NCBI GenBank assembly: GCA_043732705.1
Contig: JAYTHE010000043.1
Span: 9,067 to 73,066 of the forward strand
DNA: 64,000 nt
Source of the DNA: Candidatus Omnitrophota bacterium
Lineage (GTDB): Bacteria; Omnitrophota; Omnitrophia; Omnitrophales; Aquincolibacteriaceae
Direction: 5' to 3'
Position numbers and translations under genes: made by a program. Each line of letters starts with the position of its first letter. Within the stretch, counting starts at the first letter, position 1. Positions 2,963 to 18,148 of the stretch are shown piece by piece. The notes beneath the pieces were generated by a model. That model was given only the letters and a program-made list of their open reading frames with translations. It had not been told where the DNA came from and searched no databases.

Positions 2963-3043
2963 GTGAAAAATAAATTGTTACTACATAAATATGTGGCTGC
3001 GCTTCTCATCGTGTGTCTACTTGTGCAAGACGCTGCATTTGCA
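2963..3043 (+). other. predicted signal peptide of the giant protein (cleavage after AFA)
   Basis: The sequence MKNKLLLHKYVAALLIVCLLVQDAAFA-HG has a basic n-region, a hydrophobic core and an AxA site. Confidence 0.6.
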
Positions 3044-6000
3044 CATGGCGGGCCACGAACTACGAGTCACGAGCCACGAAAAAAAACGTGGTCCGTGGAA
3101 CGTGGAGCGAATTTATTTAATATTTCATCTCAGCTTGGATCTATCGAGGAATCTTTCGAAGGCACCAACGGCAAAAAAATTATTTTCATTCAAGATGCGC
3201 ATGACTCGCTTGAGGCGCAGGAAAATATCACAAGGCTCGTCACGCGTTTTGTTAAGCAAGGCGTGCAAACAGTTTTTGAAGAAGGCTATGCGGGACCGGT
3301 TCCTACCGACGCTTATTTTGGCGATATCAAAGACTCAAAGATTAAACACAAGGTAAGTTTTTACTATCTGGATCACTTAAAGCTTGGCGGAGCTGAATAC
3401 GCGCATATTAACCGGCGAAGCCGGTTGGCCGGAGACCCGAGGCCCGAGGCCCGAGAGCATAAAGCAGCGAATGCTGACTGGCAGTTAATTGGAGCGGATG
3501 ATTTGCCGGCCTATCTTGAAAATGTGCGGGCTTTCGCGGATTCGGAGAAAACACGCGAAGAAATCGAAGAAAATCTGCGGGCAATATTCCGAGAGCTTGC
3601 AAATATAGCCAAAGCGAAGTTTTCAAGATCCGCACAAAGCTGGATCCGCGACCGGCTGCGTTATGAAAACAACCGTCTGACGGTTTCGGATTATATCCAG
3701 CGAACATTGGCGCCTTTTGATTTGAATGATCAGCGCAAATGGCCGCTGCTTTTTGCCGTTCAAGCAACAAGCGCTCAAAAGGAAAATGCCGAGGCGCTTT
3801 TAAGGGGTGCGAACCCGCGTGAAATTTTAAACGAGCTCGCCGCGGCGGAAACGAAGCTGGAAGCGCGCTATTTTCAAAGCGCGGAAGAAATACAGCTATG
3901 GCATTTTTTGCGGGCAGCACGAAGGCTGGCCAAGCTTTCGGAGTTACGGCTCAATCCTTCAGACCTGAATCAGCTTAAAACTGAGATGTCCGCCCTTGAT
4001 ACGGAAAAGCTCGCCGCATGGATCGCGAAAGAAAAAAGCTCGCCCGTTGTGCTTTCCAAAAAATGGGAAAGCCAAATTAAATCCGCACTGCGTTTTTATG
4101 AGCTTGCCGCGATTCGCGAGCAAGCCGTTGAGAAAACTTTGTTAGACTGGAGACGAGAGACCGGAGACAAAAGACCAACATCCGAGATGGGAGCGGGGTC
4201 TGTCCCAAGCGAAGCGCGTGGACTGACCCCTATGGTTTCTAGTCACGACCAAAACGGAACGGCCGTTTTGGTATTCGGCGGATTTCACAAAGAGGGAATT
4301 ACCGGCATGCTTCGCAAATATGGATTTTCGTATTGCGTTATCACGCCAAAGATCTCAGAGCCTTCGCTGAAACATCAAAAGCTTTATCGTGAGGCGATGC
4401 TTTCTAAGGGCCTTCGGCCTTCGGCCGCCGGGCTTGCGGCGCATGCCGCGCGCGCTCCCGATCTCTTTTTAACCATTCCGCTGTCCGCTGCCCGCACCGA
4501 AATCCGCGGACTTGCCGAATTTGCTACGCGCTCCGAAATTCGCGCGCTATCTCTCCCCGAATTTTCCTTTCAGGCCGAAAAGCGGCTTGAAGAAATTAAG
4601 CGCTCCGAAGCACGTGCAAGTGAAAAAATGGAAGATTGGATTCATAGCATTGAAAACGAATTGCGCAAGCCGAAGCCCGATTCAGCCGCGCTCGAGAAAA
4701 TAGAGGCGGCGGCGCATGCATGGGTTTTGCAGCTTAAAGGTTTAGACGGAGCAGATGAGCTGTTAAGTGACGAATATTTTGGAGCTGATTATAGAAAAGT
4801 TTCCACCGAAGAGCGCCAATGGATGCGTGTATTTTTAGCGGCGGCGGTGGTTATTTTGGCAATGGATGATCCCGATTTGAAGCAATTGCGGAAGCTGGAT
4901 GATTTAATTGGGCAATTTAATCAAAAATATAATCAAAGCAACTGGGGCTGGGCGCTGGTGCTTTTTATGAAGCTGGCGCTGAACCGGTTTGTGGTGGAAG
5001 GGCCCAAGCTTCGCACTTTGCTTAAATTGTACGGACGCGGCACGCGTCTTCCCGGTGAGTACAAATATAAAATGGCGGCCTTCACTTTACTTTTACTTGG
5101 CATGCATCTCGGGCATGACGCGGATCCGACCGACGGCCCCGATTTAAATCCGTCCAGTAGTTTAGGGCTTGCTGTTGAGACTTTAAAACATCCCGAAGTG
5201 TTAAATGAAATCCCCGAACCAATGCGCGAGGGAATTTTGGAAGCGTTGCGTGTTGGCTTGACGCATTACGTGGTTTCATCTTGGTTTTGGTGGAAAATAG
5301 GCGCACCCAAACTTAAAAAACAGCTTATTCAAAATCGTGATTTAATCCGAAGTGTGTTGGCTGAAATGAAAAGCCGTTCCGCGCAGCCGGCCGCGATTTT
5401 CGTTTTTGGACGGAAACGATGGATGAATAGGCGTTTTTTTGAAAGTGATTTAAGAAAACAACGGCCTGTCGCAGCATGGGATGAGATTTTGCTTCATCCG
5501 TTTAAGGCGGAGAATTGGAGCCCGTTTCTTCTTTTTGTTCAAGCAAGAACGTCATTTGGTTTACCTGCGCCGAACGAGACAAAGCAGCACGCAACGGACG
5601 CCGCTTATGCTCGAATTATGGATCAACTTGAGTCCTTATCAGATGAACCGGAACAACGCTCCGAAGCACGGGCACGTGAAAAACAGCCGTCGATTTTCTC
5701 AATTTTTCATCCTTGGCATGCGTGGTATTCGCTTGCATGGACAGTTGCCACAGGCAAGTGGATGTTTTATTTAGATGGTCTTCGAAAGGAGCTTGCGAAA
5801 AACAAATATGCCGCACCTGATTGGCTGGGATGGGTTCCAGACATTGCGATTACAGCTTTTGCGCTTAACTTTCTTGTTTTTTTTCTTACCGGGTTATTTG
5901 TTACAAAAGGAACAGAGCTTCGAAATGACCATCAGGAAAAAGTCGCGCTCTGTTTTGTGTTCGGAGCATTTATGTTCGTGGTTTTGGGAGAGTTTTTAAT

Positions 6001-9000
6001 TCCGCCGCCGTTAAATTATTTTGACTGGAAAGATATCGGCGCCTATTCAATTGGACTTGCTATGGCGATTACTGTTCGAGACATTGGACTGGCAAGGCTT
6101 GCGAAGAAGATCTTTTTTAAAGAAACAAAAAGTACGCGCTCCGAAATGCGGGAAGAAAAAAATGACCCACTACGAGCTGGGGAAGTTCTCCAGAAAATAT
6201 TTCGTGAAGGGACATGGCAGCCTCAAGAACTCGGAATGCTTTTCCCTGATCTCGATGATTCAGAAAAATTTCGTTTGCCCGCATTTATTTTTGAGGCGCA
6301 ACTATTCATCAAAACTCAAAACGCAAATCTCTGGGAATATCTTTCGCGTTTGCTCGTGGTTTACGTTGGTCCGGCTGGCCCCTGGCTTTATCTTTACGAC
6401 GCTGCAACCCTTTCGGTGGACCTTTTTATAATGAGCGGTGTTTTTCTCGTACTTGCCTGGAGAAGCTTCAGTCAAATCGCTTCGCTTGCGCAAACGCGCA
6501 TTCTTTTCCTCAAAGCGTTCAAGAGCGCGCATGACGCCATTATAAAAGAGCGGCAAGTCACAGCTGATTTAACTGATACAGGGGATTCGAGCGGACGCTC
6601 AGAGTTTCGGATGCCGCAGGAGCAAGGCCTTGCGAATTTAACGTTGGCGATTAATGTCATGGATTTGGGCGCGGAGATTCAGCCGGACGGGAAAATAATT
6701 TATAAAAACAGTTTTGAAAAACTGAAACAGCTGCTGCCAGTTTTGCAAGGCATGGGTATTCGAAAAATTTATCTCTATGGGCTGGCGGAAGTAAGTGAAA
6801 TTTCAAAAAAGATTCATACGGTTCCGGACGAAGGCTTGCATTTTATTTCGGGCGGTAAAGCAACTGTGATGGTTGAGACTTACACTGTGCGTCGCGAAGA
6901 AGCCGGAGAAAATGAAAAAATAAAATTAGATGATGCGCACGGCAATATTTTTTCAATTGCCGACTTGCGGAAAATAAACCCACAGTACGCGAGTAGTCCC
7001 AGTCGCGCTGAAAAAGAATTTAAAAGCCTAACAAGACTCGCGCATTCGTTGGATATCAAAATAACCGCGGATTTTATTTCTTGGCTTGCGCCCGATGCGA
7101 TCAATGAAAAGAATTATCGCCAAACATTTTATTACGAACTCTCCGAGGTGAAAAACCAGGAATTCCGTGATCAGCCGGATGAGGCAAAAAAACAAGCGTG
7201 GATTAATCAAGAGCTAGGAAGAAAAGAAGACGGCAAATTGGTTCACGGATCTTTTTTTGCGCTCCGCATTACAGAAAACGGGGCTGAGCGTGTGATCATG
7301 GTTAAACATTTGACTCCGTGGGGGGCAAATGCCGATCAAGTCATCCCTAATCCTTTTCACCCCGATTTAAAGACTTATTACAAAAATGCGCTCGAGAGAT
7401 TAATTGACCGCGGAGTGGATGAAGTGCGCGTGGATATCGGCCATATGCTGCTCAAACAAAATATGCGTGGATATTTCGAAGAATTGCGCTCCAAAGGCAT
7501 GAATCTTGAAGATTGGCTGAAGGCGAACAGCTTCGGCCTTCGCAAAAATGAAAAATTTGAAAGCTGGTTTGACCGGCAAGGCGATATGTGGCATGAGGTG
7601 GTTGATCATGCCAAGACTTATGCTATTGGTCATGGAAAGCGCATTCGTTTTACGATGGAAACGTATAGTCCGGGAGAGAAGCAAACACTTTTTGCGCAAG
7701 GTGTTAATGCAAGCTACAACAAATCCATTTTAGATACGTACGGAGAAATTGCGAAGGGGGATTTGCGCGCGTACAAGTTTGATGATCCCGTGAAACATGT
7801 TTTTCACGATCGCCCTTGGGCTCTTTCTTTTTTAACCAACTTTGACCAGCTCTCGTTGGCCAAGTTTGGCGGCCCATCCCAAGCCGGATTTATGTTGCTT
7901 GTTGCTCTTTCCCATTTGGGCGTTCCGTCTATGATCGACTTGCGGGATCTGATGCTGCATCACGGCCAAATCGCTAAAATTGTAGGGGGAACCTGGGACG
8001 CGAATGACTCGCATCATCATGCTTTTGCCGGCGAAAGCGATTTTAAAATGTATGGCGGCACTGAGGCTTTAATCTCCGAGGTTGGAAATGCCGCTCTCGG
8101 AAAAGTTCTCAAAGATTTCCAAAACATTCACCCCGGAAAAAAAGAACGCTATTTTGATATTTTGAACAATGAAAAACGCGAACGTTATTTTAGCTTGGGC
8201 TGGCTGAATGAAGATGGCGATTGGGTCATTGTCTTGTTGGATTTTTGGGCGCATGACGACAGATTGGGAGAAAAGAAAGAATTCGTCAAAGTAGGAATGC
8301 CCCCGAGCACTCCGGAAACCCATTTTAAATATCAAGATTATGATGCGGTTGATTCGGAAGGGAGAAGTCTCGCGTGGGGGCGATGGTTGGGAGAAGGCGG
8401 CGATCCGGAAGTCGTTTCCGTTCATTTTGACGAAGCCGAAAAAATGGCGCCTTATAAAATTATTAAGCTTAAACGAAAAAAAGAAGCGCCGCATTTGCCT
8501 GCGCCCGCAGCGGTTGAATTAACCCGCGAAACCATGCTTAGGCATCCTTTTCCGGAAGCGCGTTTGCGCGAGTTGGAAAAAATTCTCAGCGAGTCGGCTT
8601 ACGCGGACTTGCGCGAAGATGCGATTTTCTTCGCGCTGATGGATGAAGATTTTTTTGTGCGCGCCTATGCCGCGAATATTCTTGCGGACAAGGTAACAAA
8701 TTATAAATATGAATCGCAGCCCGAAGCCTGGATCAAACATTTTATAAATCCGCTTATGTCACTTGACGCGTTAAATGAAAAACGCATTCCCGGTCTGCTT
8801 CATTTTGACCCGCGCCGCGCCGCGCGCAATAAGCGCAATGCGCTGCTCTATGCTTTTGCCCGGCTGAGAGAAAAAAATGGAAGTGACCGGCCGGTATATC
8901 GCCGTACAGTTACCGCGCTTTTTCAAAACACACTCGAAACGCAGGCGCGCGAGTGGCAGTCGGAAAATGAATCCAAGGTTACCAAAATCTTAGCGGAGGA

Positions 9001-12000
9001 AGGCCTTAAAATGGGGGTTGGAACGGCTGAGCCGCTTAATTTAGCGGAATTGCTGCGCCTTATTTATCTGCGGCATTTACAAAAACTCAAAGTTTTGGAA
9101 AAAAATGAGAAGGACAAATTTCATTGGGTGACTACCGCTTTACAGAAAATGGTTCCCCCCAAGTCCGCGGCGGGCAAAGTTATTTTTTCTCCCGCCCGCT
9201 CCGAAATGCGCACGTTGCGCGAACAAATTTTAGAAAATGATTTTCTGAGAGAAAAATTTACCGATGAGCAGCTTGTTCTTTCTAAGCCTTTGTCTGATCA
9301 TAAAAATCATGGGCAAATTTATCCGGGAAGAAAACAAGCTGATGGAAGCCAGTTATTTATTAAAATTAACCCGCATGCGCCAGGCGATGACCAATATGAC
9401 AGTGCCAATAAGCATCTTTTGAGAGAAGCCAAGACGCTTGTTGAGTTAAACCAAAAAGGAGTCGCAGGAATTCCTAAGCTGATCCAAATCGGCATAACGG
9501 CAGGCGGACAGATTTGGCTTCGCATGGCAGGCATTCCTGATGCCCAGATGTTTATTACTGACGCCTGGGACAGTCTCGACATAGAAGACCAACTTGAACT
9601 TTTAGCACAAATGGCAGATATCATTGCAAGTGTCCACGTGCAAGGATTTTTGCATATGGATTTGAAGCCCAAAAACTTTCTATTTGCTCGGGGAAGCACC
9701 GGCAAACCACAGGCAATGTTGATTGATTTTGGATCAGCCGCAAAATTAGGTGAATATATTCGCCATCACGGGTCGGAGCTATTTGCTCCGCCCGAAATCA
9801 ATGAGTTTACGCCCGCCAAAACCCCTTTTGATGTTTTTAGTTTTGGAAGAACGTTAGAGTCTGTTTTTGGAATTTTTGCAAAACAGCACCTAACGGAATA
9901 TTTTAAAAAGAACGCGACAGAAAAAAATTTTTCTTACTTAGAAAAGTATGGGCTAGGTCTTTTAATTGAAGGCATGGTTTTAAAAGAGCCGAGCAAGCGC
10001 CTGCCAAAAACTTTTTTCGAAGTCGCGTTGATTTTGCGTGATATTCGCGGGCGTCTTTTGAATGAAAAGCCTTTGCCTTTCTGGTTTCGTAAAAAAATCG
10101 AAATCGATCAATGGCTAAAAGGTAAAGGGTATCGCGATTTTGACCGTGTCATTGCGTATCCGTTTGCGATTTCGCGCTCTGAAATGCGAACGCAAAATAA
10201 AAAAGACGAAGCCGTGCGACGCAGTGCGATATTGCGTGCGTTTAAAGAAGGTAAAATGGACGGCAGACAATGGCCTTCCGAAGCGCGATTAATTCTGGAT
10301 CTTTTTTTGCGAGGACGTTTTTCCGGGCGCGTCGCCAAAGAAATATTGGAAAAATTTTCGACTCGGACTCCGCGTCCCGAAGGCTTAACAACGCTTTTGC
10401 TTTCCGCCCAAGTTGCGTTAGAAAAAAATTTAGATGCAAAGTGGATTCCGGTGCTCGTGGCGATAAATCATTTTCCACGCAGCGGGAAAGACGTCCGGGC
10501 GCGGATAAAAGAGTACGAAAAAAATATTTATCCGAAAGCGGCACCTAAAAAGCTCAAAGAAGCCGCGGAAACGGTTTATGACCGGAGCCGGGCTCCAGAA
10601 TCAATTGCTGAAAAGGGCTTGATCGCCGGATTGAGCCATTCCACGGAAGGCTTGCATGCTGTTTTGGCGTTCGATGAAACAATGCGGCAACTCAGCGGGG
10701 AACCCAGACCGGCGATGGTAGATGTTCTCTTGGGCCTCGACCAACTAAAAAGCCGTCGGGGCGGATTGAGCGAAGAAGTCAAATTCCTTTCCGGCTGGCT
10801 GCTATTACCAAAAAATGAAATGCGGCAGCGGCTTGTACTTTGGAAAACGGCCGAGATGATGGAGGTCACAGGGCTTGAATATTTGTTGATCGATGATTTT
10901 TTACGGCGCGGCGCGAAGTCACAGCAAATCAAAGCTTATGTCTATTTATTCCAGGCGGTGACACCGGCAGCGGATGAAAGCCAAGCGCATGCGTATCGTG
11001 CGTGGATTACGGGCGTTTTGCATGAGGTTTCCACCGTCTACCATGATCGTTTCGCCAAACATTTTAAATTTAGAGAAACTACGGCAGCAACCTGGCCGGA
11101 AGCCGCGCGGAAAAAAATGCAGCGCGCCGCCGCTTATCTTTGGAATGAAATTGAAAGCCTGCCGCCGCTGCCGCCCAATGGGGAGTATCGACAGCAAATT
11201 GAGGATTTAAAACAGCTTTTAATTCTTGCGGCCAATCTGGGAGCCTCAAGCTATGTTTGGAGGATGATCGACGCGCTTTCGCCTTGGAAGCACTTTTCGG
11301 TTTTATCTGCTTTTGCCTATATGTTTGATGATGATGGTCTTCTGGATAAGGCTACCGCAAGGAAAGCAGTGCATGATTTTTTTGATGGATATGGCAAGCG
11401 CCGCGCTGAACAAGCGGATGCGTTTTTGGACCGCGTTAAAAAGTTAGATGTTTTGCAGGGCGGGTCGGTAAAAAGCATCGCGAACTATTTTAAGAAAAAC
11501 GATTCGCCTTTATTGGATGAAGGCGAAACGCGGCGCTGGCTGGAACTTATCAAGTTATTGTACGAAGGAGAAGGAAGTCTGTCGAAACAAAAAACTCCCG
11601 CGCGGTGGAAAGCAAAAGCGACAAAATTCACGCATGAAGTTACTCAAAAATTTAAAATAGATATGGCCCCCTATTATTCCGGACTGAGCGGTGTGATTAA
11701 ATACACCATTTATGAAGATGGAGAGCGCTTGGCGCTTACGATTAAAATAAAATTGCCGAACCATCCGGGACGCCCGCTCGTCCTGTTAATGGCTGCTAAC
11801 ACCGAAGTCATGTTTAATGAATGGTCCTTGCTGGCCGCGCTTTATCTTGATTTACAGAATAACCGGCGGCCGGACGCATTTGACGGCGATGATGGCGATT
11901 CTTTCGCCCGCTCCGAAATGCGGAAGGAAATGTATGGTCTTTCGCGTGAAGAAATTTCCCGCATTTTGGCTTCGCATAACCCGGCTGGAATTAAAAAAGT

Positions 12001-15000
12001 TGTGGATGACATGGAAATGGCGGTTCGTCAGCTCTCAGCTTTGGGTGCGCACCCGGCTGCGCGCGCATGGATAAAATATTTGCGCATGATGCGTGAAGGT
12101 AAAATCAATGCGGGCCATATTTTTATGCTAAAGCAGTCAGAATTATCGGAAAATGCTTTCCGACCGTTTGCGTCGAATTTCTGGAAAATAAAACTGCTGG
12201 ACGCTTTTTTTAATCAGCATCCGATTTTCTTTCCCCCTTTTCTTGGTGGAGCACAGCGCTTAATTGGGATTGCTGACTTTTGGCCCGGCCTTTTGCCAGC
12301 AGAAATGGGCGTGGAAGCGGCCAAAGAATTAAATGGCTTTATAGTTTGGTATTTATTTGAGCTTCATGACGGCCAGGCAATTCAATGGCCGGTCAATTTC
12401 CCTCTGCGGGAAATAATTCTGCAGTCTTATCTCCGGTTTTTGTCGGGGCTTTCGGGAGAAGTTATGCAAAACTTTACTCAAGAGCTGAACGAAGCTGAAT
12501 TCAGAGCGATCGTGACGCAAGCTTTGGGCGGTCTTATTGCCAGTCTCCAAGACATTGCCAAAGCGATAAAAACTGATTTGGACGAAAAGCAAAAACTGAC
12601 CGATTTGGATCGCGGAAAATTTGTGGAGTTGCTTGAAAGCGGCCACTATGGAAGCGCGCTTGCCCTGCTCCGCCAAAACGAGGCCCTTTGGAAATATTAT
12701 TTTAAATGGATGCGGCGGCTTGATTACGGCTATATGAATGCCCTGCGGTTGATGCAGCAGCTTTTGCGGGCAGGATGGGGCGAAGAGGAATATGTCCGCG
12801 AAACTGAAAGTTATTTGCATAAGTTTATTCATCTGATTGAGCCGCGCTTGATTCGCAGAATGCTGGCGCGCAATATTCTTTTTCAATTCGCGTTGTATCA
12901 ATCCATTCGCTTTAAGCTGTGGTTTGATGATGGTGTGGGCGGATATGGGGAGATTTATAATGACAACTTGCAGTTTCAATATAATTTCCTGCACTCGAGA
13001 GAAAAGACGATTCAAAAAATTATGACCCGCAAGGCTCTTAAAGAGCTGGAAGACATTGCCGCGCGTACTGCGAAGGGCCGCTATCTTCGGCTTGTTCAAG
13101 AGCTTATCCGAGCGAGATTTCTACAGCGCTCTGAAATGCGGGAACCGTTAAAAGCGTGGGTTGAGCAAGCGCTGGATGAACGGGCCGTTGTCGACCCCTC
13201 GAAAAGAGCGGAACTTTTGCGTATCTTTTCGATTATGGCCGCTGATTATGAAGAGGCAGTGCTTGATAAAAAATTTGGAATGGCACCAACAACAGTCGAA
13301 AGTTATTTACATGCTTTTGTGAAAGAAGCGCTCGGAAACCTTGATGCGGATGCGAAATGGATTGAAAAGCTTGCGCAGGGCGCACGGCTCATTTTAAAAA
13401 AGAAACTTTATCCGCATGGCTTTGTCGCCTATCCGCTGCCGGCAATTTTATCAGCTTTGCGGGAACTTAAAAAGCAGCCCGCGGAAGCGGATGCGTGGTT
13501 TCAAGCGGTTGATGAGACCCTGGCAATAAATCCAAGAATTAATCCGCAGGAAATTTTAGATGCCGCGATTGCCGCGGCAGGCGATATGGCTATATTCAAA
13601 CGCGAACTGCAAATGGTTCGTTCCGAAGCGCGAGAAATCAAATTAATTTTGCAGGGCTTCCGGCAAAACACGGAAGTTAGGGTGCTGTTCAAGCCGGAAG
13701 ATTCGGGCGATGTAAAAGCGATTCTGATCAAAGCAGGATTTGGACGTGAAAAGAAAGGCGCGCTGCGCTTGGCCGATATCGGCGAAGTTTTATTAGACGG
13801 GATTAATTTAGGAAAATTTTGGGACACAGCAGGAATTTTAAGAAACTCACAAAATATTATTGTGCGCCACAAAGATTACGAAGAGCCCCAGAAGTCCAAA
13901 CCTGTTTCAAGCGAATCTCCAAAAACAATTTTGGCGGCGGTAAAAACAGAGCAAAAAGGCCTGAGAATTTTTGCGAAGCCTTCATCGCGTCGACCAGAAA
14001 AAATAACATTTTCCTTGAAGCTTCCGCTGGATGATTTGATGACGCAGCGTTTGGAAAATTATGCCGAATGGTTCGCAACGCCAGAAGCGGAGCGTGCCGA
14101 GAAACCGCGCAACCAATTAAAATTCATTTCACTGGTAAAAGAAATAAAAACCGAGACTATTCGGATTGACGAACTTGCCACCGCTGCGGCAGAGGAAGAA
14201 AAGGGGCTGGAGGATGAACCGGGCAAGGAAACCAGCTATGTTGGATCAAATGCCAATGTTAGTGCGAAGGAAAAAGCGAAGCCCGTTGTTAAAGAATACC
14301 GGACTTTTGAAATTACATGGAATGCTCGCGAGGCAGGGGATGTTGATACCTTAAAAGGCATTCTCTATCAATTGGGTTATCAAAGCTCAATAATTCGGCT
14401 TCGATACCATTTGAATTTCGAAGTAAAGCCTGTCGCGGACACATTTGATCCGATCAATAACGGTGATGTCTTAACGGCTGTTTTGAATTCTGCCCGCAAC
14501 CGCGATGATGATCGTGAAGGTGATTTGGCTTTGGAGTCTTACACGCAGGAAATGCTTGCGAAACTAAAAATCAAAACCCCTGAAGAGCTGGCCGCTTTAC
14601 GCGCCGAGCGTGAAGAGGAGCTGATAGGCAAAATCGGCCTTAAGAGCGCTGAGATGGAAGCTTTTATTTCAGGAGATTTTCAGCCAGATAATCGGAATGC
14701 GAGTCTTTTGCACGAAGTTTGGAAAAAATATTTAGATGAGGGCATGCGCACCGCAATAATTACTTATTTTGGCTTGCAAGGAAATATCCCGGCGACCAAC
14801 AAAATTCATTTGGCCGCAGAGCTTAAAATGACAGCAACCGAATCCATCGGCAAACTAAGTATGGCAGCAGCTTATTTAAAAAATGCTTACCAGGATGGCA
14901 AATTGCCAAAAGCAAAGCCTGTCCCCAAAATAGTTGCGGTGAATCGGGAAGATGAAAAAAGCATTGTGCCACCGGAAAGTCCGATAACCACAAAAGAAGC

Positions 15001-18000
15001 GAAAGATATCAAGCCCGCGCCTGAAGTTCTTGCTCCGGCCGACCAAGTTTCTGTGTCGGAAGCCCTGACAGCTGTGCTAGAAACTAAACCTGCAGCCGAA
15101 GTCCCTGCGTCGGCGGGGGAGCAGGCAGAAGCATCAACGCGAGAACGGGAACCACGGCCCTATCTAACAATGTTTAAAACCGTTTGTCAAAAATTTCAGT
15201 TTCAAGCTTTTTCAAGACAGGAACTCTATGCAGAATTTTCCAATAAATCTAAATCTGTTATTGATGGGAGGCTTCAATCTTTTCTGACAGCGGGGTTAAT
15301 TGAAAAAGTTGAGCAAGTCAAAACTAAGCCCAGGATTTCGAGCTCAGAGAAAGCGTATAAACTAAAAGAATTTAGGGCGGATCAAACGGAGGCGCTTGAA
15401 TTCGCATTGGAAAGTTGGACTGATAAATATGACGAAAAGCTCGCTAAGTCGCTTATTGCGCGAGTGTTTTCTATTCAAAAAAAAGAACACGAAATTCTGC
15501 GCCCCGGAAAACCCAAGGAGGGAGATTTTTCACACACCGAAGGCTTTGTCGCTTTCGTTGAGTGGCTGTGGGAAGAATGGAAGCCATGGATTTCTTTGAA
15601 GCAGCCGGTTAAATTTGCGGCTCTAGGAGCGCGACTCATTAACAGCTCCAAATGGTTGCTTCCGCATCTTATGCAAAGGCTCGAAGCAAGCGGCTTGGCC
15701 GCCATAGTTTCATCTGCGGCGATTGGAATACACAATTGGATCACCATAACAAATTTTTCAGGCTGGAAGAAGGACCGTGTGAAGACAGCTCTTGAAGGAT
15801 ATCGCAAGCATCGCGATTTTCGGCGGCTGGCGGTAGAAATCAAAAATATTTTGATACAGGAAGAGCAGCCGTCCGTTGTGTCGCCACAAATGATTTTACC
15901 CGGATTCAAAGAAGTGTTTTCTCCCGCGCTCAGCGGACAGAAAAGCAAGCAGATGTCATTGCGAAAAGTAATGGAAGCGGCCGAAGTTGTTCGCCAAGAA
16001 AACGGGGATGGTTTTCTTGTAAGCACAAAAACCGTTGCAAAGCAATTGGGCGTTGCGCAAGGAGTGCTTGTCCGATTTGCAAACGATAATTCAATTCGAC
16101 TCAGCCGATTGCATATTTACACAAGGGAACCTGGCCTGAGGGGGCAACGCGAAAAAGTCCTACAAGAAATAAAGGCCGCGGCCGACCGCTTACGGGCGGA
16201 AAACCCACAGCATCAATATATGCCCTTTGCCGAAGAGGATTTAATTTTAGAAATGGGACGTTTTAAATCTATGAGTGGATTTGCATTCGAAATGAATTTT
16301 CTTAAAATTAAAGATCTCGCTTCTTATGGGGTTTTTAAAGCAAACACAAATTCGAATGACCTTCGGGAATGGTTAGATCGATATGCTGAGGTTTTGTTTG
16401 GCAAAAAAATATCAGCTGAGGCCATAAACGAAATTATGACTGTTTGGACTCCTCACAAAAATCACATAGGACAGAGCTGGAAAAAACGAATATCCCCCGA
16501 AACCGAAAAATATCTGGCGGCGCAGCAAAAATGGATACAGGAGAAACTGAAGCGCCGTGATAAGCAGCGCGCTGAATATATTCGCAGTTTAATAGATGAA
16601 GCGGTAAATGAGTATCATCTGGCGCAAAGCCAGCCTGGTTCTCCTCGTTTGAGGAAAGCAAAGTTTCGGCTTCTTGCTCTCGATCCTTTTCATCCCGCGT
16701 TGAGGGGAAAGAAAATTTCGGAAGTGGCGCCCAAAGCACCCAAGCGAGCAGATATGGGAAATAAAACGAAAAAGACAGCACCTATATTCAAACCTAATCC
16801 GATTTATGAAACGCAAGCGAAGCTGGGCGTGATCATTACGAGTCCAGCCGACATCGATTGGGAAAATCCAACGGAAGCATTACCGATTTTCAAGGAAGAC
16901 GAAGAGCTGGCTACGACAACGGAACGCGGGTATTTAAATTTAACTAAAATTCTTCCCGGTGCTTCGCTTGTGATCACCAACTTAGGGATTAAAGGAAAGC
17001 ACAAAGTATTTATTAAAAGCGGCGGCGCTGAAAACAAAAAATACAAGTTGGTGCTCCGCATTGAAGGTGTGAACGAAGAAAAAGCATTCTGGATTGGACG
17101 CTACCGGGGAAAGAGTTTGTTTGGTGTCGCTCTCGGTAAAAATCTGGACAAAGAAACTTTTGAGCTTTTAACTTTGGAAGAATGGAATGCGCGTTTTTTT
17201 GCTGAGCTTTTAACAAAGCCCGACGAGCTTTCATGGAGCCAAGCCATCGAGCCAAGCGGAAAATTTGAGGGTGTTGATCTTGGAGCGCTTAATAATTCCG
17301 GATACGGCAAAGTTTGGCTGGAGAAAAGTGTTGAGGCCGAAATTAAAATTGGCGGCAGACGGGGATATTCAGGCTATACTCCAAGACTTGTTTCGATTAC
17401 CGAACAAGACCAGCTATTAAAACTAGGAATTTTACTTACCAGCCCCGACAAAACAAAATCCGAAACCGTAGATCTGTATTTATCAGATTTGAAAGCAACG
17501 GCCCAGGGCAGTGGTTTAAAGGCGGCCACGACTGTTACCTATCGGAAACCTTCCGCGCGAGAAGAAGCTGTCGTTAATGAAATAAAGTCTGGTGAAACAA
17601 AAACCAAGCCACGCTCCGAAATGCGAGAAATCCAAAAAAATAATCCAGCGATTATGATTTGGCCAATGCAAAAAGTCGGAACAGTTTTAATTTCACGCGC
17701 CGAATTGCGGAATCTTCCCGAAGAAAATTTTCTGGCGCTTTATAAAACCGCCTACACACGTTCCGAGCTGCGTTTTTTAGTTTATGGCGAGGATTCATTA
17801 ACTGACTCCGAAGACCCCCGCGCTCAGATGCTCACCACGATTCCCAACGGGAGGGTACGCGTCAACTTTATCGGTGGTAACGAACCCAAAGCTTTGATGC
17901 GGGTTCCGGTTTCTGAACGAGCGGTGATCATAACGGGAAGAAGCGAGGCTCGCTTTTTAACTCTGCGCAAAGGAGTTTCGCGAGTAGCGGCTCAAGGCCA

Positions 18001-18148
18001 AGCCGCAATGTTGGCCTTAGGGCTTTTGTGGACAGTGAGCGATACTCCACTTAGTCAGAAGAATGGTTTTTTAAGCGATCCTTCCGGGCGTTTTACTGAA
18101 ATGACTCGAGCCTTTTTGTCCCAGCTTGTTTTTGCCTCAGCCGCTTAA
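2963..18148 (+). CDS. giant multidomain membrane-anchored protein (5061 aa) containing a Ser/Thr protein-kinase domain and recurrent RSE[MA]R motifs
   Basis: There is no stop codon for 15,186 nt. The start is GTG 2963, with in-frame alternatives TTG 2975 and GTG 2993. It lies downstream of a 290-bp AT-rich leader. A signal peptide, TM cluster, GH13-like motifs and kinase motifs are present. Codon usage matches the neighbouring genes. A perfect 15-bp hairpin follows the TAA stop. Confidence 0.85.
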   Translation: MKNKLLLHKYVAALLIVCLLVQDAAFAHGGPRTTSHEPRKKTWSVERGANLFNISSQLGSIEESFEGTNGKKIIFIQDAHDSLEAQENITRLVTRFVKQGVQTVFEEGYAGPVPTDAYFGDIKDSKIKHKVSFYYLDHLKLGGAEYAHINRRSRLAGDPRPEAREHKAANADWQLIGADDLPAYLENVRAFADSEKTREEIEENLRAIFRELANIAKAKFSRSAQSWIRDRLRYENNRLTVSDYIQRTLAPFDLNDQRKWPLLFAVQATSAQKENAEALLRGANPREILNELAAAETKLEARYFQSAEEIQLWHFLRAARRLAKLSELRLNPSDLNQLKTEMSALDTEKLAAWIAKEKSSPVVLSKKWESQIKSALRFYELAAIREQAVEKTLLDWRRETGDKRPTSEMGAGSVPSEARGLTPMVSSHDQNGTAVLVFGGFHKEGITGMLRKYGFSYCVITPKISEPSLKHQKLYREAMLSKGLRPSAAGLAAHAARAPDLFLTIPLSAARTEIRGLAEFATRSEIRALSLPEFSFQAEKRLEEIKRSEARASEKMEDWIHSIENELRKPKPDSAALEKIEAAAHAWVLQLKGLDGADELLSDEYFGADYRKVSTEERQWMRVFLAAAVVILAMDDPDLKQLRKLDDLIGQFNQKYNQSNWGWALVLFMKLALNRFVVEGPKLRTLLKLYGRGTRLPGEYKYKMAAFTLLLLGMHLGHDADPTDGPDLNPSSSLGLAVETLKHPEVLNEIPEPMREGILEALRVGLTHYVVSSWFWWKIGAPKLKKQLIQNRDLIRSVLAEMKSRSAQPAAIFVFGRKRWMNRRFFESDLRKQRPVAAWDEILLHPFKAENWSPFLLFVQARTSFGLPAPNETKQHATDAAYARIMDQLESLSDEPEQRSEARAREKQPSIFSIFHPWHAWYSLAWTVATGKWMFYLDGLRKELAKNKYAAPDWLGWVPDIAITAFALNFLVFFLTGLFVTKGTELRNDHQEKVALCFVFGAFMFVVLGEFLIPPPLNYFDWKDIGAYSIGLAMAITVRDIGLARLAKKIFFKETKSTRSEMREEKNDPLRAGEVLQKIFREGTWQPQELGMLFPDLDDSEKFRLPAFIFEAQLFIKTQNANLWEYLSRLLVVYVGPAGPWLYLYDAATLSVDLFIMSGVFLVLAWRSFSQIASLAQTRILFLKAFKSAHDAIIKERQVTADLTDTGDSSGRSEFRMPQEQGLANLTLAINVMDLGAEIQPDGKIIYKNSFEKLKQLLPVLQGMGIRKIYLYGLAEVSEISKKIHTVPDEGLHFISGGKATVMVETYTVRREEAGENEKIKLDDAHGNIFSIADLRKINPQYASSPSRAEKEFKSLTRLAHSLDIKITADFISWLAPDAINEKNYRQTFYYELSEVKNQEFRDQPDEAKKQAWINQELGRKEDGKLVHGSFFALRITENGAERVIMVKHLTPWGANADQVIPNPFHPDLKTYYKNALERLIDRGVDEVRVDIGHMLLKQNMRGYFEELRSKGMNLEDWLKANSFGLRKNEKFESWFDRQGDMWHEVVDHAKTYAIGHGKRIRFTMETYSPGEKQTLFAQGVNASYNKSILDTYGEIAKGDLRAYKFDDPVKHVFHDRPWALSFLTNFDQLSLAKFGGPSQAGFMLLVALSHLGVPSMIDLRDLMLHHGQIAKIVGGTWDANDSHHHAFAGESDFKMYGGTEALISEVGNAALGKVLKDFQNIHPGKKERYFDILNNEKRERYFSLGWLNEDGDWVIVLLDFWAHDDRLGEKKEFVKVGMPPSTPETHFKYQDYDAVDSEGRSLAWGRWLGEGGDPEVVSVHFDEAEKMAPYKIIKLKRKKEAPHLPAPAAVELTRETMLRHPFPEARLRELEKILSESAYADLREDAIFFALMDEDFFVRAYAANILADKVTNYKYESQPEAWIKHFINPLMSLDALNEKRIPGLLHFDPRRAARNKRNALLYAFARLREKNGSDRPVYRRTVTALFQNTLETQAREWQSENESKVTKILAEEGLKMGVGTAEPLNLAELLRLIYLRHLQKLKVLEKNEKDKFHWVTTALQKMVPPKSAAGKVIFSPARSEMRTLREQILENDFLREKFTDEQLVLSKPLSDHKNHGQIYPGRKQADGSQLFIKINPHAPGDDQYDSANKHLLREAKTLVELNQKGVAGIPKLIQIGITAGGQIWLRMAGIPDAQMFITDAWDSLDIEDQLELLAQMADIIASVHVQGFLHMDLKPKNFLFARGSTGKPQAMLIDFGSAAKLGEYIRHHGSELFAPPEINEFTPAKTPFDVFSFGRTLESVFGIFAKQHLTEYFKKNATEKNFSYLEKYGLGLLIEGMVLKEPSKRLPKTFFEVALILRDIRGRLLNEKPLPFWFRKKIEIDQWLKGKGYRDFDRVIAYPFAISRSEMRTQNKKDEAVRRSAILRAFKEGKMDGRQWPSEARLILDLFLRGRFSGRVAKEILEKFSTRTPRPEGLTTLLLSAQVALEKNLDAKWIPVLVAINHFPRSGKDVRARIKEYEKNIYPKAAPKKLKEAAETVYDRSRAPESIAEKGLIAGLSHSTEGLHAVLAFDETMRQLSGEPRPAMVDVLLGLDQLKSRRGGLSEEVKFLSGWLLLPKNEMRQRLVLWKTAEMMEVTGLEYLLIDDFLRRGAKSQQIKAYVYLFQAVTPAADESQAHAYRAWITGVLHEVSTVYHDRFAKHFKFRETTAATWPEAARKKMQRAAAYLWNEIESLPPLPPNGEYRQQIEDLKQLLILAANLGASSYVWRMIDALSPWKHFSVLSAFAYMFDDDGLLDKATARKAVHDFFDGYGKRRAEQADAFLDRVKKLDVLQGGSVKSIANYFKKNDSPLLDEGETRRWLELIKLLYEGEGSLSKQKTPARWKAKATKFTHEVTQKFKIDMAPYYSGLSGVIKYTIYEDGERLALTIKIKLPNHPGRPLVLLMAANTEVMFNEWSLLAALYLDLQNNRRPDAFDGDDGDSFARSEMRKEMYGLSREEISRILASHNPAGIKKVVDDMEMAVRQLSALGAHPAARAWIKYLRMMREGKINAGHIFMLKQSELSENAFRPFASNFWKIKLLDAFFNQHPIFFPPFLGGAQRLIGIADFWPGLLPAEMGVEAAKELNGFIVWYLFELHDGQAIQWPVNFPLREIILQSYLRFLSGLSGEVMQNFTQELNEAEFRAIVTQALGGLIASLQDIAKAIKTDLDEKQKLTDLDRGKFVELLESGHYGSALALLRQNEALWKYYFKWMRRLDYGYMNALRLMQQLLRAGWGEEEYVRETESYLHKFIHLIEPRLIRRMLARNILFQFALYQSIRFKLWFDDGVGGYGEIYNDNLQFQYNFLHSREKTIQKIMTRKALKELEDIAARTAKGRYLRLVQELIRARFLQRSEMREPLKAWVEQALDERAVVDPSKRAELLRIFSIMAADYEEAVLDKKFGMAPTTVESYLHAFVKEALGNLDADAKWIEKLAQGARLILKKKLYPHGFVAYPLPAILSALRELKKQPAEADAWFQAVDETLAINPRINPQEILDAAIAAAGDMAIFKRELQMVRSEAREIKLILQGFRQNTEVRVLFKPEDSGDVKAILIKAGFGREKKGALRLADIGEVLLDGINLGKFWDTAGILRNSQNIIVRHKDYEEPQKSKPVSSESPKTILAAVKTEQKGLRIFAKPSSRRPEKITFSLKLPLDDLMTQRLENYAEWFATPEAERAEKPRNQLKFISLVKEIKTETIRIDELATAAAEEEKGLEDEPGKETSYVGSNANVSAKEKAKPVVKEYRTFEITWNAREAGDVDTLKGILYQLGYQSSIIRLRYHLNFEVKPVADTFDPINNGDVLTAVLNSARNRDDDREGDLALESYTQEMLAKLKIKTPEELAALRAEREEELIGKIGLKSAEMEAFISGDFQPDNRNASLLHEVWKKYLDEGMRTAIITYFGLQGNIPATNKIHLAAELKMTATESIGKLSMAAAYLKNAYQDGKLPKAKPVPKIVAVNREDEKSIVPPESPITTKEAKDIKPAPEVLAPADQVSVSEALTAVLETKPAAEVPASAGEQAEASTREREPRPYLTMFKTVCQKFQFQAFSRQELYAEFSNKSKSVIDGRLQSFLTAGLIEKVEQVKTKPRISSSEKAYKLKEFRADQTEALEFALESWTDKYDEKLAKSLIARVFSIQKKEHEILRPGKPKEGDFSHTEGFVAFVEWLWEEWKPWISLKQPVKFAALGARLINSSKWLLPHLMQRLEASGLAAIVSSAAIGIHNWITITNFSGWKKDRVKTALEGYRKHRDFRRLAVEIKNILIQEEQPSVVSPQMILPGFKEVFSPALSGQKSKQMSLRKVMEAAEVVRQENGDGFLVSTKTVAKQLGVAQGVLVRFANDNSIRLSRLHIYTREPGLRGQREKVLQEIKAAADRLRAENPQHQYMPFAEEDLILEMGRFKSMSGFAFEMNFLKIKDLASYGVFKANTNSNDLREWLDRYAEVLFGKKISAEAINEIMTVWTPHKNHIGQSWKKRISPETEKYLAAQQKWIQEKLKRRDKQRAEYIRSLIDEAVNEYHLAQSQPGSPRLRKAKFRLLALDPFHPALRGKKISEVAPKAPKRADMGNKTKKTAPIFKPNPIYETQAKLGVIITSPADIDWENPTEALPIFKEDEELATTTERGYLNLTKILPGASLVITNLGIKGKHKVFIKSGGAENKKYKLVLRIEGVNEEKAFWIGRYRGKSLFGVALGKNLDKETFELLTLEEWNARFFAELLTKPDELSWSQAIEPSGKFEGVDLGALNNSGYGKVWLEKSVEAEIKIGGRRGYSGYTPRLVSITEQDQLLKLGILLTSPDKTKSETVDLYLSDLKATAQGSGLKAATTVTYRKPSAREEAVVNEIKSGETKTKPRSEMREIQKNNPAIMIWPMQKVGTVLISRAELRNLPEENFLALYKTAYTRSELRFLVYGEDSLTDSEDPRAQMLTTIPNGRVRVNFIGGNEPKALMRVPVSERAVIITGRSEARFLTLRKGVSRVAAQGQAAMLALGLLWTVSDTPLSQKNGFLSDPSGRFTEMTRAFLSQLVFASAA
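4819..6465 (+). other. transmembrane helix cluster of the giant protein (at least 4 strong TM segments)
   Basis: Hydrophobic stretches are IAITAFALNFLVFFLTGLFV, VALCFVFGAFMFVVLGEFLI, IGAYSIGLAMAITV, LLVVYVGPAGPWLYLY and LFIMSGVFLVLAW. There are also weaker ones such as VFLAAAVVILAM. Confidence 0.6.
6930..7990 (+). other. alpha-amylase superfamily (GH13/GH-H clan)-like TIM-barrel segment
   Basis: The pattern FSIADLRKINPQY..EFKSLTRLAHSLDIKITADFI resembles Y.xDY.IDP.YGT.EFK.LV.AH..GIKVILD. GVDEVRVDIGHML resembles GVDGFRxDxxxH (region II; R, D and H present). FTMETY carries a Glu. FLTNFDQ resembles FVxNHD (His replaced by Phe). Confidence 0.4.
8560..8700 (+). other. HEAT/PBS-lyase-like repeat
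   Basis: The sequence LRELEKILSESAYADLREDAIFFALMDEDFFVRAYAANILADK fits the HEAT-repeat pattern. Confidence 0.4.
9281..10060 (+). other. eukaryotic-like Ser/Thr protein kinase catalytic domain inside the giant protein
   Basis: There is a Gly-rich stretch HGQIYPGRK, a LFIKI (VAIK-like) Lys, a catalytic loop HMDLKPKNFLF, LIDFGSA (DFG) and ELFAPPE (APE). Confidence 0.8.
14905..15165 (+). other. low-complexity P/E/K/A-rich linker
   Basis: The sequence KLPKAKPVPKIVAV...PESPITTKEAKDIKPAPEVLAPADQVS...KPAAEVPASAGEQAEAS is low-complexity. Confidence 0.5.

What the first reader, a model, noticed from the sequence alone, without database searches (positions are those of the whole stretch)
9197..10189. 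The kinase catalytic module is exactly bracketed by two RSEMR copies, giving a 327-residue unit
ARSEMR (nt 9197) lies about 30 residues before the kinase N-lobe, whose Gly loop is HGQIYPGRK. SRSEMR (nt 10175) lies about 40 residues after the end of the C-lobe. Two copies delimiting a complete, autonomous fold is what cleavage-site or linker motifs of polyproteins would produce. The module has the catalytic Asp in HMDLKPKNF, the DFG Asp and a VAIK-like Lys in LFIKI, so it looks catalytically competent. A cytoplasmic location would then be implied for the C-terminal 3,900 residues.
Basis: partly seen in the sequence, partly recalled or inferred. Interest (0 to 1): 0.7.

Follow-up and report, generated by a model that had tools for sequence, protein, structure and literature searches.

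The report
Delimiter motif between giant-protein modules
A 5,061-residue protein of an uncultured Omnitrophota bacterium is divided into protein-sized modules, one of them a protein kinase, by 13 copies of the five-residue motif Arg-Ser-Glu-x-Arg; related giant proteins carry the same or a lineage-specific motif at module borders, so these are the first concrete candidate processing sites for such giants, though cleavage is not shown.

Summary
RSEMR starts at nt 9197 and 10175 (aa 2079 and 2405) of one ORF (2963-18148, 5,061 aa). A Hanks-type kinase lies between them: Pfam Pkinase E 5e-14, K2134, HMD2233LKPKN and D2255FG present, Gly loop degenerate.

The pair is part of a larger pattern. RSExR occurs 13 times, against about 0.1 expected. 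It occurs only in the reading frame and in no other gene of the window. The segments it separates are not paralogous.

The organism is an Omnitrophota bacterium. Giants from related MAGs share a Tiki/EreA/ChaN-like N-terminal domain and a conserved C-terminal domain around shuffled cargo. They carry R-[SATPH]-E-x-R at about 19 per 10,000 residues, against about 2 in ordinary ORFs.

Known folds sit between copies. These include a second kinase in a 318-aa bracket, a complete cytidylate kinase, and a GDPD domain 18 aa after a copy. More distant giants use other delimiters (GARLA, ERREVRRDYAD) at the same distance before their kinases.

The module-boundary reading is well supported. Proteolytic processing is the best mechanistic reading but is untested, and no protease is identified. 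Three C-terminal copies lie inside a conserved domain, which is a caveat. I found no published description of the motif.

The parts
2963..18148 (+). Giant ORF, 5,061 aa, GTG start. The identical protein is in the public collection (P0003, NCBI source, on a 114,924-bp contig).
2963..3049 (+). N-terminal hydrophobic, signal-peptide-like segment (MKNKLLLHKYVAALLIVCLLVQDAAFA|HG)
   Evidence: hydropathy scans; read from the sequence
3083..4417 (+). N-terminal domain (aa 41-485) of the Tiki/TraB/EreA/ChaN fold superfamily. It has a large helical insert. Conserved residues are D78-x-H80, E107 and GGFH442.
4493..4507 (+). RTEIR (aa 511), a variant delimiter in the low-confidence tail after the N-terminal domain
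4529..4543 (+). RSEIR (aa 523)
4601..4615 (+). RSEAR (aa 547)
5657..5671 (+). RSEAR (aa 899), just before the hydrophobic cluster
5843..6457 (+). Cluster of transmembrane-like segments. Strong: aa 961-979, 995-1013, 1147-1165. Weaker ones lie between them.
6137..6151 (+). RSEMR (aa 1059), between hydrophobic segments
6596..6610 (+). RSEFR (aa 1212), at the exact start of a module shared with another giant
6596..8266 (+). Module aa 1212-1768. It is 31% identical to aa 1850-2405 of a different giant (L002 11130-19274). Sub-threshold alpha-amylase match only.
9197..9211 (+). RSEMR (aa 2079), the upstream bracket of the kinase module
9308..10087 (+). Hanks-type Ser/Thr protein kinase domain. The Pfam match covers aa 2116-2301; the end near aa 2375 is inferred. 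Key residues: K2134 (nt 9362-9364), HMD2233LKPKN (nt 9653-9676), D2255FG (nt 9725-9733), FAPPE, DVFSFG.
10175..10189 (+). RSEMR (aa 2405), the downstream bracket of the kinase module
11909..11923 (+). RSEMR (aa 2983)
13127..13141 (+). RSEMR (aa 3389)
13619..13633 (+). RSEAR (aa 3553)
17612..17626 (+). RSEMR (aa 4884). It lies in a K/T/E/S-rich stretch about 20 residues after the end of a module shared with L002_up.
17651..18145 (+). Conserved C-terminal domain of this giant family (aa 4897-5061), ending ...FASAA. It contains RAELR 4912 (nt 17696-17710), RSELR 4933 (nt 17759-17773) and RSEAR 4993 (nt 17939-17953).

Best explanation
The gene encodes a modular 'cargo' giant of an Omnitrophota bacterium. 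Its frame is constant: a signal-peptide-like start, a Tiki/EreA/ChaN-like N-terminal domain of about 450 residues, a cluster of membrane segments, and a conserved C-terminal domain of about 165 residues. Between these lies a string of unrelated, protein-sized modules. These include an amylase-like module, the Ser/Thr kinase and several orphan modules.

The modules are separated by a short linear motif, R-[S/A/T/P]-E-[hydrophobic]-R. Here it is mostly RSEMR or RSEAR.

Shown: the motif is selected at the protein level, it is specific to this class of giants, and it sits at module boundaries, including both sides of the kinase.

Inferred, and the most likely mechanism: the motif is the recognition site of a sequence-specific endopeptidase that cuts the precursor into separate proteins, as in a viral polyprotein or a MARTX toxin. 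The kinase would be released as a fragment of about 326 residues with its catalytic residues intact. The recognition system appears to co-evolve with its sites, because related giants use other delimiters.

The protease is not identified. The family's own Tiki-like N-terminal domain is one candidate, since Tiki and RRSP are endopeptidases of that fold. Its probable periplasmic location argues against it acting on the cytoplasmic sites.
For: Enrichment and frame:
- RSExR occurs 13 times against about 0.1 expected, and every RSE is followed by xR.
- It occurs only in the coding frame (13 against 0 in each of the other five frames). Synonymous codon variants exist.
- It occurs 0 times in 12,817 residues of the other window genes.
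- The segments are not paralogous, so the copies are not by-products of domain duplication.

Family-wide signal:
- There are 79 instances in 41.6k residues of giants from 9 genome loci (L002-L013) plus metagenome proteins.
- The density is 18.7 per 10k residues in ORFs of at least 1,200 aa, against 2.3 per 10k in ORFs of 200-1,199 aa from the same loci.
- Each giant exceeds its shuffles.

Boundary position:
- Kinase homologue alignments stay within aa 2086-2394.
- P0008 kinase 1 lies in a 318-aa RSEMR/RHENR bracket.
- P0165 has a complete Cytidylate_kin at 510-725, between motif copies at 490 and 733.
- In L002_up, GDPD 1101-1299 starts 18 aa after RSEAR 1083.
- The block shared with L002_dn starts exactly at RSEFR 1212.
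- The first copies after the N-terminal domain lie in a tail of pLDDT 41-52.
- The stand-alone N-domain protein P0162 ends 55 aa after GGFH, close to where giants carry their first delimiter (58-120 aa after GGFH).
- Flanks are enriched in P/S/T/A, with small residues at -1 and -2.
- The median spacing of 326.5 aa is the size of an ordinary protein.

Lineage-specific delimiters at the same place:
- GARLA occurs 13 times in P0066 against 0.04 expected.
- ERREVRRDYAD occurs 3 times in P0013.
- The distance from delimiter to kinase catalytic loop is 152 (window), 157, 172, about 179 and 174 residues.
- The motif flavour is shared by the two giants of one genome: RSE[AM]R in L002, RAE[VL]R in L011.

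Against: - No direct evidence of cleavage exists: no proteomics and no N-termini. Everything shown fits an uncleaved linker or docking motif equally well.
- No protease is identified. The Tiki-like domain follows a signal-peptide-like segment and precedes three strong hydrophobic segments. It is therefore probably on the opposite side of the membrane from the kinase and most copies.
- Three copies (aa 4912, 4933, 4993) lie inside the conserved C-terminal domain. They delimit pieces of 21-69 residues and are not conserved in the closest relative.
- Some homologous module starts lack the motif: KTSFA in L002_dn where the window has RSEFR.
- Some giants have only 2-4 copies in about 3,300 aa, and P0015 shows no recurrent motif.
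- The kinase-unit structure could not be predicted (pLDDT 35).
Confidence: 0.5

Rival explanations
1. The motif is an uncleaved inter-module element. It could be a short surface motif at the start of each module that recruits a partner such as a chaperone, insertase or scaffold. It could also act as a structural cap or punctuation that helps each module fold on its own during translation of a 15-kb message. The giant would then work as one membrane-anchored multi-enzyme polypeptide.
For: - All the boundary evidence fits this reading equally well.
- Several copies are followed by helix-like sequence, for example RSEMRTLREQILENDFLREKF.
- Downstream flanks are enriched in E.
- Copies inside the conserved C-terminal domain are easier to accept for a binding or structural motif than for a cleavage site.
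- Published analyses treat Omnitrophota giants as membrane-anchored multi-enzyme proteins (10.64898/2026.06.07.730766).
- The unusual codon choice in the motif (CGC 10 of 13, TCC 9 of 13) could reflect a translational role.
Against: - A structural cap would not need five near-invariant positions. It would also not be replaced wholesale by unrelated sequences (GARLA, A[RQ]SLG) in related giants while keeping its position.
- That pattern is typical of a co-evolving recognition pair. A binding partner is possible, but none is known.
Confidence: 0.3
2. The motif is a substrate site for the embedded kinase, or another kinase. The Ser in R-S-E-x-R would be phosphorylated to regulate the modules.
For: - Ser is nearly invariant in this protein: 13 S, 1 T, 1 A and 1 P among 16 relaxed matches.
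- A kinase with intact catalytic residues is encoded in the same polypeptide.
Against: - Relatives use Ala, Pro or His at that position: RAELR/RAEVR 6 times in L011a, RPEAR in L003, RHENR in P0008.
- Giants rich in the motif have no Pfam kinase hit. L011a is complete at 1,909 aa. L002_up covers 3,296 aa.
- Other lineages use delimiters with no Ser or Thr at all, such as GARLA.
Confidence: 0.05
3. The copies are DNA-level junction scars. Modules would be shuffled between giants by recombination at a short conserved nucleotide sequence (CGCTCCGAAATGCG), and the peptide would be a by-product.
For: - The giants are mosaics with modules in different orders.
- Codon choice in the motif is biased: CGC p 0.0015, TCC p 9e-5.
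- The motif flavour is genome-specific.
Against: - Copies differ at synonymous sites. The copy at nt 17939 (AGA AGC GAG GCT CGC) shares few bases with the others but keeps the peptide.
- Across genomes all Arg and Ser codon families are used.
- The fourth residue varies while staying hydrophobic.
- The pattern is strictly in frame.
- Flanking DNA is not conserved.
- 15 nt is too short for homologous recombination, and no recombinase is linked to it.
Confidence: 0.08

Closest known systems
MARTX (multifunctional autoprocessing RTX) toxins of Vibrio and relatives
   Same: - Bacterial proteins of 3,500-5,300 aa with conserved N- and C-terminal regions. (from my own knowledge of the family)
- A variable, shuffled set of effector modules separated by short sites in linkers. 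(from my own knowledge of the family)
   Different: - MARTX processing is done by an internal cysteine protease domain that cuts after Leu. (from my own knowledge of the family)
- No such domain was found here, and no RTX or glycine-rich repeats either (Pfam and NCBIfam).
- The delimiter here is a charged pentapeptide.
- Cleavage is unproven.
- The organism is an uncultured Omnitrophota bacterium.
Giant proteins of Omnitrophota (West-Roberts et al. 2023, bioRxiv 10.1101/2023.11.21.568195; 2026 preprint 10.64898/2026.06.07.730766)
   Same: - Same phylum.
- Same 'many unrelated enzyme domains in one membrane-anchored polypeptide' class, with a signal peptide plus TM helices.
- Cleavage into smaller products has been suggested for such giants.
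   Different: - Those papers state that information about cleavage points is lacking, or do not mention cleavage or motifs at all.
- In term searches of those two papers I found neither the delimiter motif, the Tiki-like N-terminal domain, nor the conserved C-terminal domain described.
- At 5,061 aa this protein is small for that literature, which concentrates on proteins of 10,000 aa or more.
Viral polyproteins (picornavirus 3C, potyvirus NIa and similar)
   Same: - One ORF with protein-sized units. (general knowledge)
- A short, lineage-specific recognition sequence repeated at each junction. (general knowledge)
   Different: - This is a cellular, chromosomal gene among housekeeping genes.
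- No protease module is identified and no cleavage is shown.
Hanks-type (eukaryote-like) bacterial Ser/Thr kinases, including effector kinases such as Legionella LegK1
   Same: - Pfam Pkinase above its cut-off, with HxDLKPxN, DFG, an APE-like motif and the subdomain XI Arg.
- A partial NCBIfam match to LegK1 at E 6e-8, far below the family cut-off.
   Different: - The Gly-rich loop is degenerate.
- The kinase belongs to a divergent clade found mostly inside giants and a few stand-alone proteins.
- It is not a member of any curated NCBIfam kinase family.

Membership tests
Protein kinase superfamily (Pfam PF00069, Hanks-type) | Profile match above the curated cut-off | tested here: met
   E 4.7e-14, 52.9 bits against a 31.7-bit cut-off, aa 2116-2301
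Protein kinase superfamily (Pfam PF00069, Hanks-type) | Catalytic residues: beta3 Lys, alphaC Glu, HxD catalytic Asp with downstream Asn, and DFG Asp | tested here: met
   LFIK2134, REAKTL, HMD2233LKPKN2238 and ID2255FG are present. Residue-level alignment to DAPK1/3 covers HxDLKPxN, DFG, APE and DxWSxG.
Protein kinase superfamily (Pfam PF00069, Hanks-type) | Glycine-rich loop GxGxxG | tested here: not met
   Only one Gly remains in DHKNHGQIY. Closest relatives have GG.S... at this place. This is a common deviation in atypical but active kinases, so it lowers confidence in activity without excluding it.
Protein kinase superfamily (Pfam PF00069, Hanks-type) | Phosphotransfer activity | not testable with these tools
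   Needs an autophosphorylation or substrate assay of aa 2079-2405.
Tiki/TraB/EreA/ChaN superfamily (N-terminal domain) | Alpha/beta fold with a parallel beta-sheet core shared by TraB, erythromycin esterases, ChaN and RRSP | tested here: met
Tiki/TraB/EreA/ChaN superfamily (N-terminal domain) | 2His/2Glu catalytic set (E-x-H, Glu about 28 residues later, a distal His in GxxH) | tested here: inconclusive
   D78-x-H80, E107 and GGFH442 are invariant or conserved across distant giants, with Asp in place of the first Glu. Their spatial proximity in the model was not checked. The comparison with RRSP residues comes from PMC6254334.
Processed polyprotein (MARTX-like or virus-like) | Short recognition motif repeated at junctions between autonomous modules | tested here: met
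Processed polyprotein (MARTX-like or virus-like) | A protease able to reach and cut the sites | tested here: inconclusive
   No peptidase family was detected in the giant. The Tiki-like domain is a candidate, but it is probably on the other side of the membrane.
Processed polyprotein (MARTX-like or virus-like) | Demonstrated cleavage products | not testable with these tools
   Needs proteomics or N-terminomics, or in vitro processing.
MARTX toxins | RTX or glycine-rich repeat regions and an inositol-hexakisphosphate-activated cysteine protease domain | tested here: not met
   No such Pfam or NCBIfam matches anywhere in the 5,061 aa.

The most novel reading that the evidence does not exclude
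Omnitrophota 'giant proteins' of this class are true polyproteins. A genome-specific endopeptidase would cut at a co-evolving delimiter (RSExR here, GARLA, A[RQ]SLG and others elsewhere). This would release a changeable set of ordinary-sized enzymes, among them an active Ser/Thr kinase, from a carrier with a constant frame: a Tiki-like head, a membrane anchor and a conserved tail. The protease could be the family's own Tiki-like domain or a free-standing copy such as P0162. That would be a bacterial counterpart of viral polyprotein expression, possibly used to deliver effectors to prey or host cells.
Probability: 0.3. Interest if true: 0.85.

Novelty: new variant of a known kind. Interest (0 to 1): 0.68.

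Why it matters
Whether the giant proteins of Omnitrophota act as single chains or are cut into many proteins is an open question. West-Roberts et al. say the lack of known cleavage points blocked both structure prediction and interpretation.

A short motif that is statistically unmistakable and sits at module borders gives concrete candidate sites. It also gives a rule for cutting these proteins in silico into foldable units. The hypothesis can be tested directly by looking for neo-termini at RSExR in metaproteomes, or by mutating R or E.

The analysis also defines a family frame around shuffled cargo: a Tiki-like N-terminal domain and a conserved C-terminal domain. That frame recalls effector-delivery toxins.

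For the kinase, the practical result is an expression construct. Residues 2079-2405 are the natural unit to express and assay.

Tried and rejected
- Single-sequence AlphaFold of aa 2049-2445 (the kinase unit): pLDDT 35, unusable. The second and last structure job went to the N-terminal domain.
- k-mer homologue search with the kinase unit: only 2 weak hits.
- Genome-contig scan with aa 2079-3393: nothing found.
- Exhaustive HMMER search with aa 2000-3100: only the kinase core has relatives, and aa 2405-3100 is an orphan.
- Profile search with the N-domain core (A2): returned only short fragments, no new full-length giants.
- Pfam and NCBIfam on every inter-motif segment: nothing beyond the kinase and a sub-threshold alpha-amylase match.
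- Pfam on P0008: only two kinases and a weak HATPase.
- The afdb50 fold library was not available.
- Foldseek against the PDB: no significant hit.
- Literature search for 'RSEMR' and for Omnitrophota plus polyprotein, TraB or erythromycin esterase: nothing relevant.
- Rejected, internal repeats or paralogy as the source of the copies: self-BLAST found none.
- Rejected, a nucleotide-level element, for example internal starts at the ATG of RSEMR or a hairpin: only 6 of 13 copies have ATG, the pattern is frame-specific and copies vary synonymously.
- Rejected, the motif as a general feature of the proteome: 0 copies in the other window genes.
Full report
**1. What is at the coordinates**

The window holds one very long ORF, 2963..18148 on the + strand (GTG start, 5,061 aa). 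Translation of 9197-10192 starts RSEMRT and ends SRSEMRT. The two copies are aa 2079-2083 and 2405-2409, 326 residues apart.

Between them Pfam finds a protein kinase domain. It covers aa 2116-2301, profile positions 12-190 of 263, at E 4.7e-14 and 52.9 bits against a cut-off of 31.7. NCBIfam gives only partial, below-cut-off matches to kinase parts of LanL, LegK1 and others.

Solved kinases (DAPK1/3, CK1, MELK) match. The printed alignments (DAPK1/3) cover HMDLKPKN, IDFG, FAPPE and DVFSFG. The beta3 Lys (LFIK2134), the alphaC Glu (REAKTL), the catalytic D2233 and D2255 of DFG are present. The Gly-rich loop keeps one glycine only (HGQIY).

Catalytic competence is plausible but not certain.

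**2. The pair belongs to a much larger pattern**

- RSExR occurs 13 times in the protein: 6 RSEMR, 4 RSEAR, and one each with I, F and L.
- Every 'RSE' in the protein is followed by xR.
- Composition predicts 0.002 RSEMR and about 0.1 RSExR.
- With the relaxed pattern R[SATP]E[AMVILF]R there are 16 copies, against a shuffle mean of 0.15.
- The other window ORFs tested (12,817 residues) have none.
- The degenerate DNA pattern occurs 13 times in the reading frame and never in the other five frames.
- Copies differ at synonymous positions, up to AGA AGC GAG GCT CGC at nt 17939.
- A self-comparison finds no paralogy between the segments.

The motif is thus selected as a peptide, independently at each site. 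One oddity remains: the first Arg is CGC in 10 of 13 copies and Ser is TCC in 9 of 13, both above gene-wide usage (p 0.0015 and 9e-5).

**3. Organism and family**

The neighbouring ychF gene finds its best matches in uncultured MAGs and 'Candidatus Omnitrophota' MAGs (93% identity to L002, about 70% to several others). The rest of the window is housekeeping: cytochrome c biogenesis, an ABC transporter, aconitase, RF3 and others.

The loci from Omnitrophota-related MAGs (L002-L013) also carry giant ORFs next to ychF. They share with the window protein an N-terminal domain of about 480 aa and, where the end is present, a C-terminal domain of about 165 aa ending [FVI]-A-x-x-A. The middle parts are mosaics:

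- Window aa 1212-1768 is 31% identical to aa 1850-2405 of the giant downstream of ychF in L002.
- Window aa 4620-4861 matches aa 323-561 of the giant upstream of ychF in L002.
- aa 2405-3100 has no relative among 1.84 billion representative proteins.

**4. The motif is a property of this class of giants**

- R-[SATPH]-E-x-R occurs 79 times in 41.6k residues of such proteins.
- The density is 18.7 per 10k residues in ORFs of at least 1,200 aa, against 2.3 per 10k in ORFs of 200-1,199 aa from the same loci.
- Each giant exceeds its shuffles.
- The flavour is genome-specific: RSE[AM]R in both giants of L002, RAE[VL]R in both giants of L011.

**5. The motif sits at module borders**

a. Alignments of 60 kinase homologues to the window protein all fall within aa 2086-2394. 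None crosses either copy.

b. P0008 (5,898 aa, same N-terminal domain) has a kinase bracketed by RSEMR 2427 and RHENR 2745, a 318-aa unit. A second kinase follows RHEMR 3342 at the same offset.

c. In P0165 a complete cytidylate kinase (Pfam positions 1-208 of 211, aa 510-725) lies between RSEMR 490 and RSELR 733.

d. In L002_up a GDPD domain starts 18 residues after RSEAR 1083, and an HTH domain ends 20 residues before RSEAR 661.

e. The block shared with L002_dn begins exactly at RSEFR 1212.

f. In a confident model of the N-terminal domain (pLDDT 80.9), confidence drops to 41-52 over aa 485-546. RTEIR 511, RSEIR 523 and RSEAR 547 lie there.

g. A free-standing version of the N-terminal domain (P0162, 431 aa, in a 461-kb contig and an independent assembly) ends 55 residues after GGFH. 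Giants carry their first copy 58-120 residues after GGFH.

h. Upstream flanks are enriched in P, S, T and A, with small residues at -1 and -2. Downstream flanks are enriched in E and S.

i. The median distance between copies is 326.5 residues, the size of an ordinary bacterial protein.

**6. Other giants use other delimiters at the same place**

P0066 (5,059 aa, same N-terminal domain) has no RSExR. Instead GARLA occurs 13 times against 0.04 expected, or 17 times with a relaxed pattern. P0014 has A[RQ]SLG between its kinase modules. P0013 has GKA[VI]WEMTE.ERREVRRDYAD three times.

The distance from the delimiter to the kinase catalytic loop is:

| Protein | Delimiter | Distance (residues) |
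|---|---|---|
| Window | RSEMR | 152 |
| P0066 | GARLA | 157 |
| P0008, kinase 2 | RHEMR | 172 |
| P0008, kinase 1 | RSEMR | about 179 |
| P0013 | ERREVRRDYAD | 174 |

The position is conserved while the sequence is replaced. That is the behaviour expected of a recognition site that co-evolves with whatever recognises it.

**7. The N-terminal domain**

It has 29 close homologues. The few that carry a source name are called hypothetical proteins of Candidatus Omnitrophica, and none has a Pfam assignment over this domain. One member hits PF04187 (ChaN, Tiki superfamily) at E 8.5e-5.

D78-x-H80, E107 and GGFH442 are conserved even among distant giants. They resemble the E-x-H, Glu and His set that RRSP needs for its endopeptidase activity (PMC6254334). 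The domain is therefore a plausible hydrolase, possibly a protease.

It follows a signal-peptide-like segment and precedes three strong hydrophobic segments. It probably lies in the periplasm, while the kinase and most copies lie in the cytoplasm. This makes it an uncertain candidate for cutting them.

**8. Interpretation**

Shown: a peptide-level, class-specific delimiter at module borders, including both sides of a kinase with intact catalytic residues.

Inferred: that it is a processing site. I rate processing at about 0.5, an uncleaved docking or structural punctuation motif at about 0.3, and DNA-level junction scars and kinase substrate sites as minor.

The substrate-site idea is weak for two reasons. 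Relatives have Ala, Pro or His at the Ser position, and giants without a Pfam kinase hit carry the motif.

Caveats:
- Three copies near the end (aa 4912, 4933, 4993) lie inside the conserved C-terminal domain and are not conserved in L002.
- Some homologous module starts lack the motif.
- Some giants carry few copies.
- The kinase-unit structure could not be predicted.

**9. Novelty**

Two papers on Omnitrophota giants discuss possible cleavage, or none at all. One states that cleavage points are unknown. Full-text searches found no description of the motif, of the Tiki-like head or of the conserved tail.

The closest known system in logic is the MARTX toxin family. Its defining repeats and cysteine protease domain are absent here.

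I class this as a new variant of a known kind: a modular giant or polyprotein-like architecture with a previously undescribed delimiter. Interest is fairly high because it turns an open question into a testable one.

Noticed in passing
window 3083-4417 (aa 41-485): The N-terminal domain of the giant has a Tiki/TraB/EreA/ChaN-like fold with a long helical insert. D78-x-H80, E107 and GGFH442 are conserved. It heads many Omnitrophota giants and also exists as a stand-alone 431-aa secreted protein (P0162; L082 10001-11296).
   Followed up: yes
window 17651-18145 (aa 4897-5061): A conserved C-terminal domain is shared by giants of this class. It starts with 'LI[SA]R[AT]EL[RG]' and ends [FVI]-A-x-x-A at the very C-terminus. 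Its function is unknown; it may be a targeting or anchoring signal.
   Followed up: partly
window, the 13 RSExR copies (for example 9197-9211): Codon choice inside the motif is biased: CGC for the first Arg in 10 of 13 copies and TCC for Ser in 9 of 13. The motif is nevertheless clearly selected as a peptide. The bias is unexplained.
   Followed up: partly
P0066, P0014, P0013 (proteins): Giants with the same N-terminal domain use different recurring delimiters: GARLA 13 times, A[RQ]SLG, and GKA[VI]WEMTE.ERREVRRDYAD 3 times. P0015 (7,422 aa) shows none.
   Followed up: partly
P0004, P0005, P0006, P0011, P0016: A second, unrelated family of long multi-kinase proteins shares a conserved N-terminal region ('FLASLT.PE.D.WVNLSPYE.DRI') and a C-terminal 'GGID(L/F)N...' region. 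It has its own recurring motif, D.AM[LV]: 4 copies in P0006 and 4 in P0011, against about 0.02 expected.
   Followed up: no
window 3440-3454 (aa 160-164): RPEAR lies in an 18-residue insertion of the N-terminal domain. The insertion is found only in the window protein and has low model confidence.
   Followed up: partly
window 6596-8266 (aa 1212-1768): This module has a sub-threshold alpha-amylase (TIM-barrel) match and a clear homologue inside a different giant (L002 11130-19274, aa 1850-2405). It shows that modules are shuffled between giants.
   Followed up: partly
window 1059-2672 (- strand): A 537-aa secreted-looking protein is encoded divergently upstream of the giant. It has no Pfam match at E 1e-5 or better.
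   Followed up: no
window 20336-20821: A type IV pilin-like gene (N-terminal GFTLVEIMIVVAIIGI) lies shortly downstream of the giant. Pfam N_methyl is recorded for the identical gene in L001.
   Followed up: no
L082 1-5153: Another long ORF (over 1,700 aa, cut by the locus end) lies near the stand-alone Tiki-like gene. It has no R.E.R-type motif, is rich in N/R/Y/G repeats at its C-terminus, and differs in type from the window giant.
   Followed up: no
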